Below, piece by piece: positions 16,471 through 27,900 of a DNA stretch of 64,000 bases. The position numbers and the translations under genes were made by a program. The notes under the pieces are model-generated. The model had not been told where the DNA came from. It did no database searches and worked only from the letters and a program-made list of their open reading frames with translations. This DNA is from Gammaproteobacteria bacterium (GTDB lineage: Bacteria; Pseudomonadota; Gammaproteobacteria; Competibacterales; Competibacteraceae), in the NCBI GenBank assembly GCA_024235135.1, contig JACKMZ010000002.1, positions 304,975 to 368,974 of the forward strand, given 5' to 3'. Within the stretch, counting starts at the first letter, position 1. Each line of letters begins with the position of its first letter.

Positions 16471-16491
16471 AGCCGACGAGTTACGCCAACC

Positions 16492-17812: not shown

Positions 17813-17922
17813 TATTTTCCGGATTTTTATTGACCGTTGATTTGGAAATTCAGGCGACCCATGCGGTTAGGCTGCGTGGTACGGGTCCCAAGACTCAATT
17901 GTTTTCGTGTGAGGTGGATGCC

Positions 17923-18990
17923 ATGAGCTTGTTCAAGAAGTTTTGGCGCAGCACCCGTCGCCCGACGCCGAGCAAACAGGAAGCGGCTTTGGGTTGCCTG
18001 CTCGGTGCTTGCGTGGGCGACGCGGCGGGGGCCACCCTGGAATTTCTGGGCCATCAGCCGACGCCTGACGAAGTCGATAAAGCCGTCAGGATGCCGGGCG
18101 GCGGCGTGCTGCGGGTTGCGCCCGGACAGATTACCGACGACGGCGAACTGACGCTATGTCTGGCGCGCGCATTGAGCGCCTCGCGACAATTCGATAGCGA
18201 AGCGATCGCCCGGCAATACGCCGAATGGGTGCGTAGCAAACCCTTTGACATCGGGTTCACCACCCGCCGTTCGTTGGGATGTTTTCACGAAGACTACGGC
18301 AGTTTTCAGGAAGACGGCTATTTCCGTTCGGTCTGCGAGCAGCAAGGCTACGCCGCGGCGATGCGCGAATCGGCGGCGAAATACTGCATGGGCTCCAAAG
18401 CCAACGGCGCACTCATGCGCATCGCGCCGCTGGGGGTGTGGGGTTATCGTCGGGACATCGACGAACTGGCGGATTACGCGCGACAGGATTCCAGCCTTTC
18501 CCATCCCGAGGAAAGCTGCTGGCAAGCCTCGGCCTGTTACGTGATCGCCATCGCTAGTCTGATCGACCGGCCGGGCGACCGAAGCCGCGCGTTCGAGAGG
18601 GCTGAACAGTGGGCGGAAAGGCAGGCCAACACGGAAGTCCGTGGCTGGCTAAACAATGCGCGGCAACAGGTCGAGGCGCCCTATGTGCCGCAGATCGGCT
18701 TCGTGCGGATCGCCTTTGCGCACGCTTTCCGGCATCTACTGCTGGGCAGTGATTACGTCTCCGCATTAAAAGAAACCTTGGCCGGTGGGGGCGATACCGA
18801 CACCAATGCCTGTATCGTCGGTGGATTGATCGGCGCGGCCTGCGGGGTCAGTCAAATACCCGACGAGATGTTGCAGCCGGTGTTGAGTTGCGATACCCGG
18901 CAAGGTGCGTATGAGCGGCCGGATTTTCTGAGCGCGGGGCAGTTGCCGGCGTTGGTGGAGGCGTTGCTTGTTCAATCTGGGGCCGAATGA
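17923..18990 (+). CDS. ADP-ribosylglycohydrolase family protein (DraG/ARH-like)
   Basis: It carries the 'GCLLGACVGDAAGATLEF' and 'GGDTDTNACIVGGLIGAA' metal-binding motifs of PF03747. The likely start is the internal ATG at 17923. Its last ~20 codons lie inside direct-repeat copy A. Confidence 0.8.
   Translation: MSLFKKFWRSTRRPTPSKQEAALGCLLGACVGDAAGATLEFLGHQPTPDEVDKAVRMPGGGVLRVAPGQITDDGELTLCLARALSASRQFDSEAIARQYAEWVRSKPFDIGFTTRRSLGCFHEDYGSFQEDGYFRSVCEQQGYAAAMRESAAKYCMGSKANGALMRIAPLGVWGYRRDIDELADYARQDSSLSHPEESCWQASACYVIAIASLIDRPGDRSRAFERAEQWAERQANTEVRGWLNNARQQVEAPYVPQIGFVRIAFAHAFRHLLLGSDYVSALKETLAGGGDTDTNACIVGGLIGAACGVSQIPDEMLQPVLSCDTRQGAYERPDFLSAGQLPALVEALLVQSGAE
18924..18990 (+). repeat. Direct repeat copy A: 3'-terminal coding segment of the ADP-ribosylglycohydrolase gene
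   Basis: It shares a 28 bp identical core (gcggggcagttgccggcgttggtggagg) and about 65 bp of overall similarity with 23374..23440. Both copies end in TGA in the same frame and encode ..AGQLPALVE.. Confidence 0.8.
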
Positions 18991-19444
18991 GCCGGTACTG
19001 TTTCAGGGCTTTGGAACCTTGCGTTTCGAAATGGGCATCAACGGCTATCGCGCCGAGCCGTTCTCGCTGCATGCTTTAACGCTGCCTGGATTTCGTCGTC
19101 GGTTTTTTGCGGGCCGTCGTATTGCAGGCAACCGGCTACGTCGTCGATGTGGGTTGGCTCGAATGGCGTCTTGGGTTTTTCTGGATGGCCTTGTTGTTTC
19201 CAAGGTGGTCATTCCTGTTGGTGCGACGTGAAGTGGGTTGTGCGTTCCGCTGTCAATTTCTTTCGGCCGGCAAAATCTTGCAGAAATGATTGTTTCAGAT
19301 TCATGCGTGGACTAGATAAAGGGGTGACACTCTTTATTCGAGAAGCCAACGCGGGGGCGCAAAGCGAAAACGTGATTTATCCCAAGATGTTAATGCGATT
19401 GATAACGCGCGGGATGAGGGGCGGTATGAGTTGGGGATAGAAAA

Positions 19445-20440
19445 ATGGCTAGTGCAGATCAATTAAAGGCGCTTCTAAAGTCGCATCTTGAGGGCGATAA
19501 CGAGCGATTTTTTTCCGTGGCGATGCAGGTAGCGGCGCACGAAGCAAAGCTAGGCCATGGCCGGCTAGCGGTAGAGTTGCGGGCCTTGATTGACCAAGCT
19601 AAGGCGCGTCGGGGGATGCCGCCGCAAGTTAGCGACAGGGCGATTCCTATCAGCCGCCCTCGCGGCGAACTGGTGGGATTACTCTCAGTAAGCTATCCGA
19701 AGGCGCGCCTCGGGGAAATGGTGTTGGATGACATCCTGTCGAGTCAGCTCAATCGAATCATCAAGGAACAGCGTCAGGCATCGCAAATTCTCGCTCACGG
19801 TTTGAATCCGAGAAGAAAATTGTTGCTGATGGGGCCACCGGGTACCGGAAAGACGATGACCGCATCGGTACTTGCGGGCGAATTAGGTTTGCCGTTGTTC
19901 CAAGTGCGTCTTGACGGGTTGATCACCAAGTATATGGGTGAGACTGCCGCCAAATTGCGGCAGGTATTTGAGGCAACAGACCGCACGCGGGGCGTGTATT
20001 TCTTTGATGAATTTGATGCCATTGGATCACAGCGTGGTCTGGTGAATGATGTCGGTGAGGTTCGACGGGTCTTGAATAGCTTCCTGCAGATGATCGAGCA
20101 GGATGAGTCCCACAGCCTGATCGTAGCGGCGACCAATCATCCCGAGATTTTGGATCACGCATTGTTTCGCCGCTTCGACGACGTGTTGCACTACGGGTTG
20201 CCGGATGAGCGCCATATAGCCGCGATGCTCAAGTCCCGCCTTGGGCGGATGGCGGCCAAAGGCGTTTCATGGACGCGGCTTGCTAGTGGGGCTGTCGGTC
20301 TGAGCTACGCTGAAGTGGCGCGCGCGTCGGACGACGTGCTGAAGGAGGCATTGATTGAGGATCGCAAGGAAATTACAGAAGAGGACATTCTGCAGGCGTT
20401 GCAGGAAAGGCTGCGGATCATAGAGCGACTCAAGTCGTGA
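19445..20440 (+). CDS. Classical AAA ATPase (IetA-like)
   Basis: It has the Walker A motif 'LLMGPPGTGKTMTA' and the Walker B motif 'VYFFDEFDAIG', with second-region-of-homology features. At 331 aa it is a single AAA module. Confidence 0.8.
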   Translation: MASADQLKALLKSHLEGDNERFFSVAMQVAAHEAKLGHGRLAVELRALIDQAKARRGMPPQVSDRAIPISRPRGELVGLLSVSYPKARLGEMVLDDILSSQLNRIIKEQRQASQILAHGLNPRRKLLLMGPPGTGKTMTASVLAGELGLPLFQVRLDGLITKYMGETAAKLRQVFEATDRTRGVYFFDEFDAIGSQRGLVNDVGEVRRVLNSFLQMIEQDESHSLIVAATNHPEILDHALFRRFDDVLHYGLPDERHIAAMLKSRLGRMAAKGVSWTRLASGAVGLSYAEVARASDDVLKEALIEDRKEITEEDILQALQERLRIIERLKS

Positions 20441-20459
20441 TAACGAAAGATTCTGGGAA

Positions 20460-22976
20460 TTGGGACGTCGAATGGCTGAACAGGAACATCAACGCAAACG
20501 GCACTTCATCCTGGAGGGTACGGCTGAGGCGAAGAGATTTCGTTCCCCACACAGGGTTGTTGGCAAGACAGTCGTACCGAACCGAAATCGAAATCAGCAT
20601 GGTCGTGCATTGTTGCGGCAAATCGAGGTGTTGCACCCACAAGTGAGCGTAGCTCGCGATGTGCAGGAAGCGGCTGGGCTCGAAGAGGGATTTGGCCTCC
20701 AGGTGGAGTTTGAGAGCTTCCCGGACATCGAGCTGGCCTTTGAGTCGCTAGCACGCGAACGCTCTGGCATTGAGCTATTGAACGTTCGGCGTGATGAGAA
20801 ACGCACGTTTGCAACTGTGTTTATCCCGGATGGCAAGTTACAAATTTTCGAGAAACTTATCCTGGCATACCTGGATGAATCAAAGGACACTAGGAAAGGC
20901 CCACGGAATCGGAAACTGCTCGACACAATCTCGGAAATTCGCGCCGCAACGCTCAATGCACTTTGGACCGATGATGCTGCGATGTTTCCCACTTCAGATG
21001 ATGAGGCGTTCTGGTGGGAGATATGGCTTCCCGTAAGAGGCGACCGGGAGGCTACCACGGCGCGATTCAAGCAACTTGCACAAGGACTTGAATTTCAGGT
21101 TTTCCCCGGCGAACTCCTGTTTCCAGAGCGTACTGTACTGCTTGCTTACGGATCGGCAGGCAAGATGAAACGCTCAATGCTGACGTTGAACAGCATTGCG
21201 GAACTGAGGCGAGCGAAAGAGACAGCAGAGTTTTTCGACGCATTGCCGCCGGGCGAACAGCCGGCTTGGCTTGACGATTTGCGCCAGCGGATGACCGTGC
21301 CGGTAGAAGATGCAAATGTACCGCACGTTTGCGTGCTCGATACCGGTGTGAACTATGGCCACCCGCTAATTGCCACCGCGCTGACGGCTGCGGATTCGCA
21401 TACGGTCGAACCGGGCTGGGGCACTGACGATGAGGATGGTCATGGAACCGCCATGGCGGGTTTGGCCTTGGCGGGAAATCTGACTGAATCGCTGGCTTCC
21501 AATGACCCAATCCAGGTTGGGCATCGCCTCGAATCCGTAAAACTGCTGCCCGAAGATGGCGCCAATGGAAGTGACGCGATACACCATGGCTACCTAACCG
21601 CTGAAGCGGTTGCGCGACCGGAAATCTCGGCGCCGCTGCGTCGTCGACTGTTCAGTATGGCCGTAACTGCCCGTGACAACCGTGATCGCGGCCGACCGTC
21701 GGCGTGATCAGCCACAATTGATCGGCTGGCTGCGGATTCAGACGGGTATGGGGAAACGCAACGGCTGTTCGTAGTCTCCGCGGGAAACGTCAGCGATCCG
21801 AATGCGTGGGTTGAGTACCCCACGAGCAACGAAACGGATGGAATCCACGATCCGGGGCAAAGCTGGAATGCACTGACTGTTGGGGCGGCGACCAATCTCG
21901 TGCAAATCACGGAGCCGGACGCCGACGATTATCAACCAATCGCGCCCGCAGGTGGTCTGAGTCCATTCAGCACGACAACGTTGACTTGGGCGCGTCAGTG
22001 GCCCTTCAAACCCGACATCGTCTTCGAAGGTGGCAATGCAGCGAAAAATGCATTAGGGGCGGTGTGGATGCCGAGTCTAAGTCTTCTCACGGCAAATTCG
22101 AGACCCCATGAGCGCCTGTTTACCACGGCAAATGCAACCAGTGCGGCATCGGCGTTAGCAGGGCGTATGGCAGCACAGTTGATGGTGGAATATCCGGAAC
22201 TATGGCCTGAGACTATTCGGGCACTCATCGCGCATTCGGCGGAATGGACCGATGCGATGCGTCAGGCGTTCCTTCCGGTCAACGGCCTATCGAGTAAGAA
22301 GGACGTCGCTAGCCTTATTCGTCGTTGCGGCTTCGGAATGCCTGATTTGGAGCGGGCAATGTGGAGTGTCGAGAACTCCCTCACCATGATATGCGAGGAA
22401 CAACTACATCCTTTCAAACGCGAAGGTCCAAAAGATCCGACTTTGCGGGACATGAATTTTCACCGTTTACCCTGGCCATTACAGGAGCTTGAGGCACTGG
22501 GCGAAACGCAAGTGGAGATGCGGGTGACTCTCTCGTATTTCATCGAGCCTAACCCATCCGCACGCGGATTTTCGGCGCGCTATCGGTACCAGTCACATGG
22601 TTTGAGATATGACGTGAAACGTCCACTTGAATCAATGGCCGACTTCAGTGCACGAATCAATGCCGCAGCGCGCGACGAGGAGGAGCGGACACGAGCCGAA
22701 GGCGGCGATCAAGGCTGGATCGTCGGAATTCAGAACCGGCACAAGGGGTCTCTTCATTCAGACATCTGGCGAGGCAGTGCCGCAGACCTCGCAAGTAGAG
22801 GTTTAATCGGAGTCTATCCTGTTTCGGGTTGGTGGAAAACGCGGCCACAGTTGGAGCGTGTCGACAGCATTGCTCGGTACGCGCTTGTGGTGTCTATTCA
22901 CGCCCCGAAGGTCGACGTAGAACTCTATACTGCTGTGGCAAATCAAATTGCTGCAACGGTCGCTGTTCAAGTCTGA
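20460..22976 (+). pseudogene. Cytoplasmic subtilisin-like (S8) peptidase (IetS-like), interrupted by one in-frame TGA at 21705..21707
   Basis: The catalytic Asp ('CVLDTGV') and His ('DGHGTAMAG') lie before the stop. The oxyanion Asn ('VVSAGN') and Ser ('ANATSAASALAG') lie after it, in the same frame with no other stops. There is no signal peptide, and a ~290 aa non-protease N-terminal region precedes the protease domain. Confidence 0.6.
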
Positions 22977-22991
22977 GGCGGTTGCAAAGCT

Positions 22992-23156
22992 TTGCCAAAT
23001 TCACAAAAAGAATCAGCCAAACTGACCGGCGAAGGGCAGAAAGCTGTCGAGACGGCCGCTTTCGATTTGCAGACTAACCCCAAAAATCTTGAGCACGGTT
23101 TTCATAACCTGGAGCGCGCGAAGGATAAGATTTTCTGGTCCGTGCGTGTGAGCTAG
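22992..23156 (+). pseudogene. Possible degenerate RelE/ParE-family toxin remnant
   Basis: The in-frame translation '..NPKNLEHGFHNLERAKDKIFWSVRVS*' resembles the 'NP..G..L.....WelRv' region of RelE/ParE toxins and is then truncated. No ATG start is present. This is a weak call. Confidence 0.2.
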
Positions 23157-23373
23157 GATATTCGCCTTAGTGTTCATCGCCCCGCCTCTAGTCTGCTAAT
23201 TTGCCACGTTGACCATCACGGCTACGCCTCACTGGGCGGAAAAACGCAAGCTGGAAACCCATCCTAAAACCGGCGCAGCTTCCAAACTGCGAGAACGGGT
23301 TGAAGAAATCCGCGTATGTTGACGAAACTGAAGGTCTGCGGTTTTCAAAAGCCTTGGTATTCGAGGAATCGAC

Positions 23374-23440
23374 TTTTCTGCGAGCGGGGCAGTTGCCGGC
23401 GTTGGTGGAGGTGTTAATGGCGCAATCCAGTTGCGATTGA
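23374..23440 (+). repeat. Direct repeat copy B (ttttctgcgagcggggcagttgccggcgttggtggaggtg...gattga)
   Basis: It aligns with 18924..18990 and encodes ..LRAGQLPALVEVLMAQSSCD*, which resembles the C-terminus of the ADP-ribosylglycohydrolase. Confidence 0.8.
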
Positions 23441-23451
23441 GGAAAGCCACG

Positions 23452-24324
23452 ATGTCCCAGTACTGGACGTATATATCAGAATGGCAAAGCAGTTCGGGCC
23501 GCACGCCGCCTGACGGTATTTTATTCGCCGTCGGCGATATTCATGGGCGGCTTGACCTGCTCACCGCTATGCAACGAACCATCCGACAGCAGATGGCGTT
23601 GTCCGTTGCCGCTACCAGATCGGTCATTTATCTGGGTGACTACATCGATCGTGGCCGGAACAGTCTGGAGGTGTTGCGGACATTAGCTAAAGGCATGGGC
23701 GATACCGGGGTCAACGAGCATTATCTGCTGGGCAATCATGATCTCGGCCTGCAACATCTGCTGGAAATGGAATTTGGGGACAACGAGTTATTGCTGATTT
23801 GGTTCGAATACGGCGGCAAGAATACTTTGGAGCGTATGGGCGTACCGTGGCCAGGATACTTTGCTTCCAAGGATATGTTTGGTGAATATCAACAGAAGGT
23901 CCGGGCGGTATTGGGCGCCGAAGTTGTCCGATTCCTGGAATGCCTCCCGGCTTTTCACCAAAACGGTGACTATTTATTCGTGCACGCGGGTATCGACCCC
24001 AACCGCGGTGGGTCAATCGACCAACAGGATTTTGCCGATTTGCTGTTGATGCGGGAACCGTTCTTGTCATGGCCCAGTCCCTGGCCGTTTCCATTCTGCG
24101 TGGTGCATGGCCATACACCTGCCCGGCCAACGGTACGCGCCCATCGAATTGGGGTGGATACCGGTGCTTTTTATACGGACACGTTGACCGCCGCGCAGTT
24201 TGAGGGTACGCAGGTTCGCTTTGTGAGCGTGTCGACTCGTCGTACTTGCGATTGGCTTGAGTCATTGCCTGACAACGGCTGGCGGAATACCTACGGACCA
24301 CCGCAGCGGATAGAGAAGGAATGA
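23452..24324 (+). CDS. Calcineurin-like (PPP-family) metallophosphoesterase, PrpA/ApaH-like
   Basis: It has the 'GDIHGR', 'GDYIDRG' and 'GNHD' metal-binding motifs. A GAGGAAAG ribosome-binding site precedes the ATG at 23452. Confidence 0.8.
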   Translation: MSQYWTYISEWQSSSGRTPPDGILFAVGDIHGRLDLLTAMQRTIRQQMALSVAATRSVIYLGDYIDRGRNSLEVLRTLAKGMGDTGVNEHYLLGNHDLGLQHLLEMEFGDNELLLIWFEYGGKNTLERMGVPWPGYFASKDMFGEYQQKVRAVLGAEVVRFLECLPAFHQNGDYLFVHAGIDPNRGGSIDQQDFADLLLMREPFLSWPSPWPFPFCVVHGHTPARPTVRAHRIGVDTGAFYTDTLTAAQFEGTQVRFVSVSTRRTCDWLESLPDNGWRNTYGPPQRIEKE

Positions 24325-24397
24325 GCTTTGAAAAACTCGAAAGCAAGCGAAGGTGTTGCGCTGACGCGCATCAAAAACCTGAGAAATCTATACGAAG

Positions 24398-24440
24398 CTC
24401 GCTGAAAACAAACCAAAAACGGGCGTCCGCGAACGCCCGT
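24398..24440 (-). terminator. Intrinsic terminator (acgggcgt-ccgcga-acgcccgt, then a T-rich run on the minus strand)
   Basis: An 8 bp GC stem is followed on the minus strand by TTTTTGGTTTGTTTTC. It lies downstream of the minus-strand gene at 24465..24749. Confidence 0.5.
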
Positions 24441-24464
24441 CCGGTCCTAAATCGCGGTCTGTGA

Positions 24465-24749
24465 TCAAGCGGTGGTCGCTAAGCTCATACCCCAGTCGAA
24501 GGTGTTTTCACGGCTTTTTCCGCTTCCCAGGCTCGGTAGGCGCTCAATGTGCACCTGGCCGGATTCGGAGCGCCAGATTCTCAAACAGACTTCCTCGCCA
24601 CTGCTGGCTTCCAGCTCGAATTCGACGCCAAATTGTGGACCATCCGGTTCCAATGGCCCGTTCAGGTAATGCTCAAGCGCGAGATAGGCCACCTGCCAGA
24701 ACTCGATGCTCAGCGAATCAGGATGCTGATTGTGCAAGGTAACCGTCAT
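24465..24749 (-). CDS. Hypothetical protein (94 aa)
   Basis: The internal ATG has a GGAGAA ribosome-binding site. There is no recognisable family. Confidence 0.35.
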   Translation of the reverse strand: MTVTLHNQHPDSLSIEFWQVAYLALEHYLNGPLEPDGPQFGVEFELEASSGEEVCLRIWRSESGQVHIERLPSLGSGKSRENTFDWGMSLATTA

Positions 24750-24936
24750 GCTGGTGTTTCTCCAATCTGTAGAACGGTGAAGTGTCGCAAATTTTGCGCA
24801 GCCTGTCCTGATTCGCTGCACGAAAGTCGGCAAATTAGAGAATGAAAGTTACAGAAAGTTGACACCCCCACTGGATTTTTTTTGACTTTGGAATCGCCGG
24901 GAGATTGCCAAAGTCCGAAACCAGCCGGCCTGTTTT

Positions 24937-27900
24937 TCAAGCAGGCCGGGATCGCCGTTTGCGCCATTGGCCTACCATGAACATGCGATACAGGAGTGGT
25001 ATTACCAGCATAGTCAAGATTGTGGAGAAACCCAGCCCCCAAACGATGGCTGTCGCGACAGGCCCCCAAATCAACGATTTGCCAGCCAGTCCCGCCGCCA
25101 GGGAAAATAATCCGGCAATGGTGGTCAGGGAGGTGATCAGAATCGGAATGACCCGGCGCCGAGCGGCATACAGCGTGGCGTGCATAACGGACATGCCCGC
25201 CGCCAGACGATCGTTGGCCGCCGAGATGAGCACGATCGCGGCATTGACGGCGATGCCGGCCAACGCCACCACGCCGTACATCGTATACAGGCTGAGTGGA
25301 TTGCCGGTGATCAGCAGACCCAGCACTACGCCGGTGAAAGCCAGAGGCACCGTGGACAGTATCAGGATAGGCTGGAAATAGCTTTTGAACTGGGTTCCCA
25401 GAATCAGATAGATCAGACCCACGCCGAGCAGAAACAACACGACGATGGAGTCCAGGCTTTCCTGTATGTCGTCCAACTCGCCCGAGAAATCCAGATCCAC
25501 GCCCGGATAATCGCGGCGCAGCGTCTCCCAGGCCGTGCGTACGTCCTGATTGGCTTTGACGGTGTCCGTCTGTTCCTTGTCGATGTCGGCCTCCACGGTG
25601 ATTGCTCGGCGGAAACCGTAATGACGGATGTTCCCCTGGCTCTGGCGGGTTTGTCGGTGCACCAGTTCGGCGAGCGGGATACGGCCGCCGTTCGGCGTAG
25701 GCAGCGTGTAGCGCAGGAGGTCGTCGACGGCGTTCAAGATAGTCGGCATGGCGCGCACCCGCACGTCCAGGGTTTCCCCGCGATCCTGCAGGCTGGCGAC
25801 GATTTCGCCGTCGACCAGCAAGCCGACGGTGCGGGCGATCACGGCCGGATCGAGGCCGCTCCGTTGCGCGGCGTCCTGATTGACGCGCAATTCCAGTTCC
25901 TGCAAACCGGGGCTGTCGTCGTTGGTGATGTCGTGGATCGTCGAATTGGCGGCCAGGGCCGTTTGCAGGGCTTGTACGGCCGCCCGCAATTCACCGAGAT
26001 CGTCACCGCGTACTTTGACGCTGATGGGTTTGGAGGTGGGCGGGCCGCCGGTCAACCGCAAAAACGACACCTTGACCGGTCCCAGCGTACTTTCCACGTC
26101 CGCGCGCATGGATTCGATCATCTCTTCCACGTCGCGCAATGCCGGCGTTTTGGGGTTCAGGCCAACCTGAATCTGACCGTATTGATCGCCGAACAAGGGG
26201 GCGATTTCGGTGAACGCCTGACCGGCATAGCTGACGATGGCGCGCGCCTCGCCGTCCTTGATGTGGCGGCGGACCTTGGCTTCGATTTCCTGGGTTTTGG
26301 CCAGCGTCAGTTCCAGCGGCGCGCCGGTCGGCATCGCCACGTTGACGTAGAACAAGCGCAGCGTGTCGGCCGCGAAGAAATCGACCTTGATCTGGCCCGT
26401 GGCCACGGCGGCGATAGCCCCGGAAAACATGATCAGGGTGGCCAGCAGCATGCTCTTGGGATAGCGCAGGACGCGGATCAGCAGCCGGGTATAGTTCAGC
26501 CGCAACCAGTGCAAAAAACGCACGCGGTAGCGATGGATGCGCGATGGGCGCTGAAAGTTGATGTTCGCGCTCATGACGTGCGCCGGCAGCATCCAGAAGG
26601 CTTCCATCAGGCTGATGGTCAAGGCCGTGGTCACCACCAGCGGAATGACCAGCATGAATTGGCCGAGAATGCCGGGCAGCAGCATCAAGGGCAGAAAAGC
26701 CGCGATGGTGGTCAGTACCGCCGTGGTGACGGGGGCGAAGACTTCCTTGAGCGATTCCAGCGTCGCCGTCAGCGCGTCCAGGCCACGTTGTACCCGATAA
26801 AAAACCGCCTCCACCACGACCACGGCGTCGTCCACCAGCATGCCCAGACTGATGACGACGCCGAGCAGGACCGTCACGTTGAGCGTCTGCCCCAGGATGC
26901 TCAACATCCAGAAGGTGCCGGCCAGGATGAAGGGAATGCCGATACAGGTCAGCAGAGCGATGCGGCTGCCGAGAAACAGCCAAGTGACCAGCAAGACCAG
27001 CAACAGGCCGACGATGGCGTTGTTCTGCATCAAGCGCAGGGCGTTGCGGGTGATGGTGGTTTGATCGTCCACCAGGACCAGTCGCACGCCGGTACGGTCG
27101 CTGAGGCTGTTGCGCGTTTCCAAATAGGCTTTGATGCGCTCCACCAATTCCAGCATATTGGCTTCCGCTTTCTTGGTGATCCCCAGCATGACGGCGGGTT
27201 GACCGTCGAAGCGCACCAATTGTTCGGCTTTGCGTCGGCCGCGTTCCACCACGGCCAGGGTGCTTAACGGTACTTCACCCTGGGCGGTGACCACCGGCAA
27301 ATGCGCAAGATACTGCGGATCGCTCTCGGCCCCGGCCAGCCGTATCAGCCAATCGCGCTGATTGACCTGGACGGTGCCGGCCGCCACGTCGCGATAATAG
27401 CGGGTCACGGTGTCGGCCAGATCCGGTGGCGTCAGGCCCAATCCCTCCAGGCGATCCGGAAAGAATTTGACTTGTAGCTCCGGCTCGTGCAGCGCGACCT
27501 CCATGACCTGATCCACGCCTTTGAGGCGCTCCAGATCCTCCTTGACGGCTTCGGCTTGCCAACGCAGGTTTTCATCGTCGGCCGGCCCCGAGACCACCAA
27601 CGAGGCGCTGGGAAACGCGTTGGACGAAGTGATCTCCAGAATCCGTGGCGTTTCCGCCGCTTCCGGAAGTTCCCGTTCCTTGTTCTGGATTTCCCGCCGT
27701 AGGTCGTTGACCCGTTTATCGAAAACCGCGGGTTCGATATCCTCGAAGCGGACCAATACGCTGGAAATGCCCTCGCGGCTGTTGCTGGAGACGAAGCGCA
27801 CGTCGGACACCTTGCGCACGGCGTCTTCCAGGATGTCGGTGACTTGCTTTTCCACATCCTCGGCGGAAGCTCCGGACAGCACGGTGGTGATGTCTAACCA

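What the first reader, a model, noticed from the sequence alone, without database searches (positions are those of the whole stretch)
21660..21760. Single in-frame TGA splits the subtilase between its catalytic His and Asn/Ser
The S8 peptidase reading frame is continuous from 20460 to 22976 except for one TGA at 21705..21707 (...TARDNRDRGRPSA*SATIDRLAADSDGYGETQRLFVVSAGN...). The Asp and His of the triad are upstream, and the oxyanion Asn and nucleophile Ser are downstream. Three readings are possible. It could be a recent nonsense mutation that disarms a potentially toxic effector, which is common in decaying defence islands. It could be a sequencing or assembly error. It could be a recoded stop. 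Which one holds determines whether the system is functional.
Basis: seen in the sequence. Interest (0 to 1): 0.55.

Follow-up and report, generated by a model that had tools for sequence, protein, structure and literature searches.

The report
Nonsense-inactivated IetS protease in IetAS
A single G-to-A change has turned an invariant tryptophan codon into a stop in the protease gene of a known two-gene anti-phage/toxin-antitoxin system (IetAS); it is a real, naturally circulating dead allele, not a sequencing error or a recoded stop, and so is an ordinary pseudogene.

Summary
One in-frame TGA (21705-21707) interrupts an otherwise continuous 834-codon S8 peptidase frame. Asp290 and His324 lie upstream, Asn439 and Ser557 downstream. 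With the AAA ATPase gene just upstream (19445-20440), the peptidase forms an IetAS pair: IetA is the antitoxin ATPase and IetS the protease toxin/effector.

The interrupted codon is Trp in all 120 best protein homologues. It is TGG in all 82 relatives recovered at DNA level without using gene calls. The event is therefore TGG>TGA (W412*).

The same truncated 411-aa product, on DNA 99.98-100% identical to the window, appears in assemblies of at least three separate sequencing runs, so it is not an assembly error. Recoding is not supported:
- There is no SECIS-like structure and no Rfam hit.
- TGA is the commonest ordinary stop codon in the window.
- Homologues carry Trp at this position, not Cys or Sec.

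IetA and the upstream part of IetS never depart from conserved positions, whereas the downstream part does at 6 of 198. This suggests translation really ends at the TGA and that the mutation is fairly young.

The pair is not in a decaying defence island. It sits in a 4.45-kb lower-GC insertion bounded by a duplicated gene 3' end. The protease-based system is non-functional. Interest is low.

The parts
19445..20440 (+). ietA: AAA+ ATPase of 331 aa, the antitoxin/regulator partner. It is intact.
   Evidence: PADLOC IetA 2e-76 over the full length; Pfam AAA 2.5e-30. Walker A GPPGTGKT and the DEFD Walker B motif are present, with 0 departures at 132 conserved columns. The exact sequence is NCBI MCP5424554.1, from a Gammaproteobacteria MAG.
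20472..21707 (+). ietS 5' part: a 411-codon product ending at the premature TGA. It contains the N-terminal Y4kK_N-type domain and the first half of the S8 domain, with Asp290 (21339-21341) and His324 (21441-21443).
   Evidence: Pfam PF27160 and PF00082 are recorded for the identical Logan gene call. There are 0 departures at 156 conserved columns.
21705..21707 (+). Premature stop codon TGA (W412*), derived from TGG by a G>A transition at 21707. The context is GCG UGA U.
   Evidence: Trp in 120/120 homologues and TGG in 82/82 DNA-level relatives. The same allele occurs in three or more independent runs.
21708..22976 (+). ietS 3' remnant: 422 codons still in frame, plus the native TGA stop. It contains the oxyanion Asn439 (21786-21788), the nucleophile Ser557 (22140-22142) and the C-terminal domain. 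It is most likely untranslated.
   Evidence: Pfam S8 3.9e-34 and PADLOC IetS 4.1e-25. There are 6 departures at 198 conserved columns, and only 1 of 120 intact homologues is as asymmetric between its two parts. The first in-frame starts are GTG 21900 and ATG 22068, both downstream of Asn439.
18924..18991 (+). Left copy of the 68-nt imperfect direct repeat. It is the 3' end of the ADP-ribosylglycohydrolase gene (17830-18990) and marks the left edge of the lower-GC insertion that carries ietAS.
   Evidence: the repeat finder family D1, 79% identity, spacing 4450 nt. It encodes ...FLSAGQLPALVEALLVQSGAE*.
23374..23441 (+). Right copy of the direct repeat. It is a displaced alternative 3' end of the ADP-ribosylglycohydrolase gene and marks the right edge of the insertion.
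   Evidence: It reads ...FLRAGQLPALVEVLMAQSSCD* in frame, with the stop at the matching position. GC falls from 0.62 to about 0.53-0.55 between the repeats.

Best explanation
The locus is a chromosomal IetAS cassette. IetA is an AAA+ ATPase antitoxin and IetS a subtilisin-like protease that acts as toxin and abortive-infection effector. The protease gene has been inactivated by one point mutation, TGG>TGA at codon 412 (G>A at 21707). Translation ends after residue 411. The product keeps the N-terminal domain, Asp290 and His324, but lacks Asn439, Ser557 and the whole C-terminal domain, so it cannot be an active serine protease. The allele is real and is the only one seen in this strain's natural population. 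IetA remains intact. This fits the order of decay expected for a toxin-antitoxin pair: the toxin can be lost safely, whereas the antitoxin cannot be lost first. The mutation is fairly young, because the downstream 422 codons contain no second stop or frameshift and show only a small excess of replacements. Shown here: the stop, its TGG ancestry, its presence in independent runs, the absence of recoding signals, and membership of the IetAS family at HMM level. Inferred: loss of protease, toxin and defence activity, and the age of the mutation.
For: The stop sits in a continuous frame. IetA and IetS match PADLOC models: IetA 2e-76, and repaired IetS 5.5e-41 over residues 277-831. The column is Trp in 120/120 homologues of 68-82% identity, nearly all of them full-length (about 834 aa). 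The codon is TGG in 82/82 relatives fetched at DNA level independently of gene calls. The exact 411-aa truncated product is found on Logan contigs from SRR17907852, SRR12358676 (2 samples) and SRR14234073, which are 99.98-100% identical to the window across the site. A repaired 834- or 838-aa protein is absent from the collection of about 15 billion proteins. The RNA downstream does not fold better than shuffled sequence (z = -0.70), and there are no Rfam hits. TGA is the stop of 23 of 40 long ORFs, including ietA and the native end of ietS. Departures at conserved columns are 0/156 upstream and 6/198 downstream (Fisher p = 0.037). Only 1 of 120 intact homologues shows so large an asymmetry, and IetA shows 0/132. 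Single nonsense codons at other positions occur in 3 of 82 related ietS genes (L015, L052, L088), so this kind of loss recurs. From the literature: IetS is the toxin and IetA the antitoxin, ietA mutants could not be constructed, and protease activity is needed for defence (PMC5006074; PMC13069673). IetAS acts by abortive infection (bioRxiv 10.1101/2022.08.27.505566).
Against: No read-level data were available. Independence of the runs is inferred from widely separated accession numbers and was not verified; one run may be the source of the MAG itself. The relaxed-constraint signal is weak: p is about 0.01-0.04 depending on the test, and a singleton-based test gave p = 0.16. If the whole system were dead, IetA and the upstream part of IetS should also drift, yet they show no departures. 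Low-level UGA readthrough by tRNA-Trp would restore exactly the wild-type protein and cannot be excluded from sequence alone.
Confidence: 0.9

Rival explanations
1. Sequencing or assembly error: the true codon is TGG and the gene is intact.
For: A single-base difference from an invariant codon is what an error would look like. The window probably comes from a MAG (IetA = MCP5424554.1, 'MAG: Gammaproteobacteria bacterium'). One paper lists SRR17907852 among long-read benchmark data sets (PMC11042533), so at least one run may use an error-prone technology.
Against: The identical TGA allele was assembled independently from at least three runs, with 0-2 mismatches in up to 12.7 kb. The site is not in a homopolymer (GCGTGATCA). 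No repaired allele exists in the protein collection. The 411-aa fragment comes from Logan only and has no NCBI protein accession, as would be expected if the deposited annotation treats the gene as a pseudogene.
Confidence: 0.03
2. Recoded stop: the UGA is decoded, either as selenocysteine through a SECIS element or through reassignment of TGA in this organism, giving a full-length protease.
For: The frame stays open for 422 codons after the TGA, and all catalytic residues are preserved.
Against: There is no SECIS-like hairpin: the fold has z = -0.70, and the only local 6-bp stem includes the stop codon itself. Rfam gives nothing at gathering threshold or at E<=10. No tRNA-Sec or any other tRNA lies in the window. 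Orthologues carry Trp, not Cys or Sec, and none of the 82 DNA relatives carries TGA here. TGA is the most used genuine stop in the window (23/40), which excludes a code-4 or code-25 type reassignment. Replacements at conserved sites accumulate only downstream of the TGA.
Confidence: 0.01
3. Attenuated or repurposed system. One version is that rare near-cognate readthrough of UGA by tRNA-Trp yields trace amounts of exactly wild-type IetS. The other is that the 411-aa N-terminal fragment together with intact IetA keeps a selected function, such as sensing, decoy activity or regulation.
For: IetA (0/132) and the upstream part of IetS (0/156) show no departures at conserved columns, whereas the downstream part shows 6/198; combined Fisher p = 0.004. 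That pattern is what continued selection on the translated parts would produce. Readthrough of UGA by tRNA-Trp is a known low-level event in bacteria (general knowledge) and here would insert the ancestral residue.
Against: In E. coli, a U in the position after UGA is the strong-termination context (general knowledge, not tested in this organism). Downstream relaxation argues that the full-length product is not under selection. The zero counts upstream could simply reflect a short time since the mutation. No other lineage has a conserved truncation at this point.
Confidence: 0.05

Closest known systems
IetAS (IetA AAA+ ATPase / IetS subtilisin-like protease): a plasmid-stabilising toxin-antitoxin pair of Agrobacterium Ti plasmids and an anti-phage abortive-infection system (Gao et al. 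2020 as cited in PMC13069673; Stokar-Avihail et al., bioRxiv 10.1101/2022.08.27.505566)
   Same: The gene order is the same: the ATPase comes first and the roughly 830-aa S8 peptidase follows 31 nt downstream on the same strand. There are full-length PADLOC IetA and IetS matches. The Asp/His/Asn/Ser residues are conserved. The cassette is a mobile two-gene unit with unrelated flanks in 82 relatives.
   Different: The protease ORF is broken by W412*. It belongs to a divergent subfamily: the NCBIfam IteA and IteS equivalog scores (214 and 60 bits) fall far below their cut-offs of 510 and 900. The closest intact relative is only 82% identical. No activity was tested.
SgiAT (S026/S025) toxin-antitoxin system of Salmonella Genomic Island 1, an IetAS homologue (PMC5006074)
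   Same: It pairs an IetA-like antitoxin with an IetS-like toxin and is carried on an integrated chromosomal element.
   Different: SgiAT is intact and stabilises its island. Here the toxin gene is a pseudogene, and the 4.45-kb insertion contains no integrase or other island genes.
Orphan antitoxins and toxin-first decay of chromosomal toxin-antitoxin or abortive-infection modules (general knowledge)
   Same: The toxin/effector gene carries the inactivating mutation while the antitoxin gene stays intact. Other ietS relatives have independent single nonsense codons (3/82), whereas no ietA does (0/75).
   Different: Nothing distinctive. The 3/82 versus 0/75 difference is not significant, and ietS is 2.5 times longer than ietA.

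Membership tests
IetAS defence / toxin-antitoxin system | An AAA+ ATPase gene (IetA) immediately upstream of an S8 peptidase gene (IetS), on the same strand | tested here: met
   ietA is at 19445-20440 and ietS starts at 20472, a 31-nt gap on the + strand. The same arrangement is found in 75 related loci.
IetAS defence / toxin-antitoxin system | IetA matches the family profile | tested here: met
   PADLOC IetA PDLC02196 2e-76, residues 3-322 against profile positions 3-321 of 374. The NCBIfam IteA_antiphage equivalog gives 214 bits, below its 510-bit cut-off, so this is family-level and not equivalog-level membership.
IetAS defence / toxin-antitoxin system | IetS matches the family profile across the S8 and C-terminal regions | tested here: met
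   With the stop read as W: PADLOC IetS PDLC02198 5.5e-41, residues 277-831 against profile positions 247-784 of 795. NCBIfam IteS gives 60 bits against a 900-bit cut-off, so the subfamily is divergent. Homologues carry PF27160 (Y4kK_N) plus PF00082.
IetAS defence / toxin-antitoxin system | An intact protease ORF with a complete Asp/His/Asn/Ser catalytic set in one polypeptide (protease activity is required for defence, PMC13069673) | tested here: not met
   The TGA at 21705-21707 separates Asp290 and His324 from Asn439 and Ser557. The first in-frame restart codons, 21900 and 22068, lie beyond Asn439.
IetAS defence / toxin-antitoxin system | Anti-phage activity, or toxicity neutralised by IetA | not testable with these tools
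   This needs cloning of the native and TGG-repaired alleles.
Bacterial selenoprotein gene (UGA decoded as Sec) | A SECIS hairpin just downstream of the UGA | tested here: not met
   Fold of 21705-21780: -23 kcal/mol, z = -0.70, with 44 of 200 shuffles folding as well. There is no Rfam match.
Bacterial selenoprotein gene (UGA decoded as Sec) | Cys or Sec at the homologous position in orthologues | tested here: not met
   Trp in 120/120 proteins and TGG in 82/82 DNA loci.
Bacterial selenoprotein gene (UGA decoded as Sec) | selA/selB/selC/selD present in the genome | not testable with these tools
   Only the 64-kb window is available, and it contains no tRNA gene.
Genetic code with TGA reassigned (tables 4 and 25) | TGA is not used as a terminator, and genes are broken by TGA when translated with table 11 | tested here: not met
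   TGA terminates 23 of 40 long ORFs. Genes of 1,200-1,340 codons are open under table 11, and GC is 57.9%.

The most novel reading that the evidence does not exclude
The TGA allele is not simply dead. Either IetA plus the 411-aa N-terminal IetS fragment is kept by selection as a protease-less module, or trace UGA-to-Trp readthrough supplies a sub-toxic dose of wild-type protease. The support is that conserved-site departures occur only downstream of the stop (0/288 in the translated parts against 6/198 downstream).
Probability: 0.05. Interest if true: 0.4.

Novelty: new member of a known kind. Interest (0 to 1): 0.12.

Why it matters
The main value is for annotation. Defence-system finders will call this locus IetAS, but it should be scored as inactive, with an orphan IetA antitoxin. 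It is also a clean natural example of toxin-first decay of a protease/ATPase toxin-antitoxin and abortive-infection pair. The allele persists across several metagenomes, and about 4% of related ietS genes carry their own single nonsense codon. It opens no new mechanistic question.

Tried and rejected
1. The genome-contig scan with the repaired protein returned only 2 distant loci at 52% identity. The window's own genome is not among the species representatives, so no named organism was obtained that way.
2. A structure prediction was run to place W412, using the intact homologue P0001 with a 32-sequence alignment. The model was poor: mean pLDDT 51.5, and below 50 across residues 397-557. It was not used, and no fold search was run.
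3. A PDB sequence search found no solved IetS. The only hit was a weak subtilisin match, 2gko, at E = 4.5e-4, which does confirm the DTG, HGT and TSAAS motifs.
4. I looked for an empty insertion site through ADP-ribosylglycohydrolase orthologues. P0126 and P0127 (76% identity) sit in unrelated contexts, so no empty site was found.
5. A literature look-up of the SRA run accessions found only SRR17907852, listed in a benchmark table (PMC11042533). Sample types remain unknown.
6. The singleton-based test for relaxed constraint was not significant (3 upstream against 6 downstream, p = 0.16).
7. A codon-level dN/dS test was considered and not run. The nearest intact homologue is 18% divergent in protein, so synonymous sites are likely saturated, and PAML and HyPhy are not available.
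8. A frameshift or double-frameshift explanation was rejected, because the residues directly on both sides of the stop are conserved and in the same frame.
9. Split-protein complementation was rejected. Any restart product would begin at residue 477 or later and lack Asn439.

Full report
**Observation.** Translating window 20460-22976 (+) gives 839 codons with one internal stop, TGA at 21705-21707, in the context ...RDNRDRGRPSA*SATIDRLAADSDGYGETQRLFVVSAGN.... The probable start is the ATG at 20472, which gives 834 codons, the length typical of the homologues. Both halves match Pfam Peptidase_S8 on consecutive parts of the profile: upstream 1e-14 on positions 5-123, downstream 3.9e-34 on positions 138-288. 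Asp290 (21339-21341) and His324 (21441-21443) lie upstream of the stop. Asn439 (21786-21788) and Ser557 (22140-22142) lie downstream.

**What the gene is.** The gene just upstream (19445-20440, 331 aa) is an AAA+ ATPase. It matches the PADLOC IetA models over its full length (2e-76). The peptidase matches the IetS models, at 5.5e-41 over residues 277-831 when the stop is read as Trp. The NCBIfam IteA and IteS equivalog models are hit but far below their cut-offs. This is therefore a divergent subfamily of IetAS, whose homologues carry Pfam Y4kK_N plus Peptidase_S8.

According to the literature:
- IetS is the protease toxin and IetA the ATPase antitoxin of a plasmid- or island-stabilising pair (PMC5006074; PMC13069673).
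- The pair also defends against phage by abortive infection (bioRxiv 10.1101/2022.08.27.505566).
- Protease activity is required for defence, and ietA-mutant constructs could not be obtained (PMC13069673).

**Ancestry of the stop.** In a MAFFT alignment of the 120 best protein homologues (68-82% identity), the interrupted column is Trp in all 120, within the nearly invariant motif RDNRDRGRPSAWSAAIDRL. Predicted-protein databases cannot contain TGA-bearing alleles as full-length proteins, so I also fetched relatives at DNA level, independently of gene calls. That gave 2 loci from genome contigs and 80 from metagenome contigs. In tblastn alignments, the codon opposite W412 is TGG in all 82. The window's TGA therefore arose from TGG by a G>A transition at 21707. 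Since no orthologue has TGA or Cys at this position, there is no sign of a conserved recoding site.

**Error or real allele.** An exact-sequence look-up of IetA and of the 411-aa truncated IetS product found contigs assembled independently (Logan) from separate runs. The 411-aa gene call is present in SRR17907852 (13.2 kb), SRR12358676 (6.8 kb, seen in 2 samples) and SRR14234073 (2.8 kb). These contigs are 99.98-100% identical to the window and span position 21707. The repaired protein, tried with either possible start, is absent from the collection of about 15 billion proteins. The exact IetA sequence is NCBI MCP5424554.1 from a Gammaproteobacteria MAG with a 565.9-kb contig. The 411-aa fragment has no NCBI protein accession, as would be expected if the deposited annotation treats the gene as a pseudogene. 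The site is not in a homopolymer. An assembly or sequencing error is therefore very unlikely. Read-level counts were not available, and the independence of the runs is inferred only from their widely separated accession numbers.

**Recoding.**
- The 76 nt from the TGA onward fold no better than shuffled sequence (-23 kcal/mol, z = -0.70). The only local stem is 6 bp long and includes the stop codon itself.
- Rfam gives nothing in the window at gathering threshold, and nothing relevant at E<=10 around the site.
- There is no tRNA gene in the window.
- TGA ends 23 of 40 long ORFs, including ietA and the native end of ietS. Genes of 1,200-1,340 codons are open under table 11, and GC is 57.9%. TGA is thus an ordinary stop in this organism.
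- The base after the stop is U, which in E. coli is the efficient-termination context (general knowledge).

**Age and consequences.** The 422 codons after the stop contain no second stop or frameshift, so the lesion is not old. I counted departures from columns that are at least 95% conserved among the 120 homologues. The window's IetS has 0 departures in 156 columns upstream of the stop and 6 in 198 downstream (Fisher p = 0.037). Intact homologues average about 2.3 departures in each part, and only 1 of 120 shows so large a downstream excess. The pattern holds at thresholds of 0.90 and 0.85. The ratio of downstream to upstream distance is 0.865 for the window, against 0.787 ± 0.059 for the others. 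IetA shows 0 departures in 132 columns and keeps its Walker A and B motifs. A singleton-based test was not significant (p = 0.16). Taken together, this is suggestive evidence that translation really ends at the TGA and that the 3' part has begun to drift, while ietA and the 5' part have not. The truncated product lacks Asn439, Ser557 and the C-terminal domain. Any restart product, from GTG 21900 or ATG 22068, would lack Asp, His and Asn. The protease, and with it the toxin and defence function, is inferred to be lost. Three of the 82 related ietS genes carry their own single nonsense codon (L015 at G494, TGA; L052 at W668, TGA; L088 near K110, TAG). None of 75 ietA genes does. Such losses recur, but the difference is not statistically significant.

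**Context.** The flanking genes are housekeeping-type:
- upstream: pyruvate kinase, a CoxE/MoxR-like pair, MetH, a short-chain dehydrogenase, an SNase, an acetyltransferase and an ADP-ribosylglycohydrolase;
- downstream: a metallophosphoesterase, an RND efflux pump and a Nudix protein.

None of them gives a meaningful PADLOC hit, and none is found next to ietAS in the 82 related loci. The pair lies in a lower-GC stretch, about 0.53-0.55 against 0.61-0.63. That stretch is bounded by a 68-nt imperfect direct repeat at 18924-18991 and 23374-23441, 4450 nt apart. The left copy is the 3' end of the ADP-ribosylglycohydrolase gene. The right copy encodes, in frame, an alternative C-terminus with the stop at the matching position: FLRAGQLPALVEVLMAQSSCD* against FLSAGQLPALVEALLVQSGAE*. 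Both resemble the C-termini of orthologues. This is the footprint of an element inserted into the 3' end of a gene, but no integrase lies inside it. It is a solitary mini-island and not a decaying defence island.

**Verdict.** This is a genuine, population-level nonsense allele (W412*) of the IetS protease in a horizontally acquired IetAS cassette. The system is inactive and leaves an orphan IetA. Confidence is about 0.9. The residual alternatives are:
- attenuation by UGA-to-Trp readthrough, or a retained function of the N-terminal fragment (about 0.05);
- sequencing error (about 0.03);
- true recoding (about 0.01).

The finding is ordinary. It is a new, broken member of a known system.

Noticed in passing
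window 18924-18991 and 23374-23441: A 68-nt imperfect direct repeat (79% identity, 4450 nt apart) brackets the ietAS pair. The left copy is the 3' end of the ADP-ribosylglycohydrolase gene. The right copy encodes an alternative C-terminus in frame, with the stop at the matching position. This looks like the footprint of a site-specific insertion into a gene's 3' end, yet no integrase lies between the repeats.
   Followed up: partly
window 18800-25200: GC drops from about 0.62 to 0.52-0.56 across ietAS. It stays low through the metallophosphoesterase gene (23431-24324) to about 25200, which is beyond the right repeat. The acquired segment may therefore be larger or composite.
   Followed up: no
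L015:3943, L052:5993, L088:2827: Three of 82 related ietS genes from other metagenomes each carry one in-frame stop at a different position in an otherwise full-length frame (G494 TGA, W668 TGA, about K110 TAG). None of 75 neighbouring ietA genes does. This may reflect recurrent toxin-first inactivation, or assembly errors in those contigs.
   Followed up: partly
window 18968-19444: The 455-nt spacer between the ADP-ribosylglycohydrolase gene and ietA contains an 87-codon, arginine-rich ORF that Logan called as a gene. It has no Pfam or PADLOC hit and no relatives in the 82 loci, so it is probably spurious. NCBI protein numbering (MCP5424552 for the hydrolase, MCP5424554 for IetA) implies that one annotated protein lies between them.
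   Followed up: partly
L092:9495-10364 and L093:9127-9996: The closest ADP-ribosylglycohydrolase orthologues (76% identity) sit next to a microbial PARG-like gene (PF10021) in variable regions that contain transposase and reverse-transcriptase genes. The hydrolase itself may therefore belong to accessory, possibly ADP-ribosylation-related, modules and not to core metabolism.
   Followed up: no
window 20390, 20466, 16479, 25263: These are the only differences between the window and the independent contigs: C/T at 20390 and 20466 in L004, and A/G at 16479 and 25263 in L001/L006. L090 and L091 carry 3 mismatches each. No polymorphism was seen inside ietS downstream of its first few bases.
   Followed up: partly
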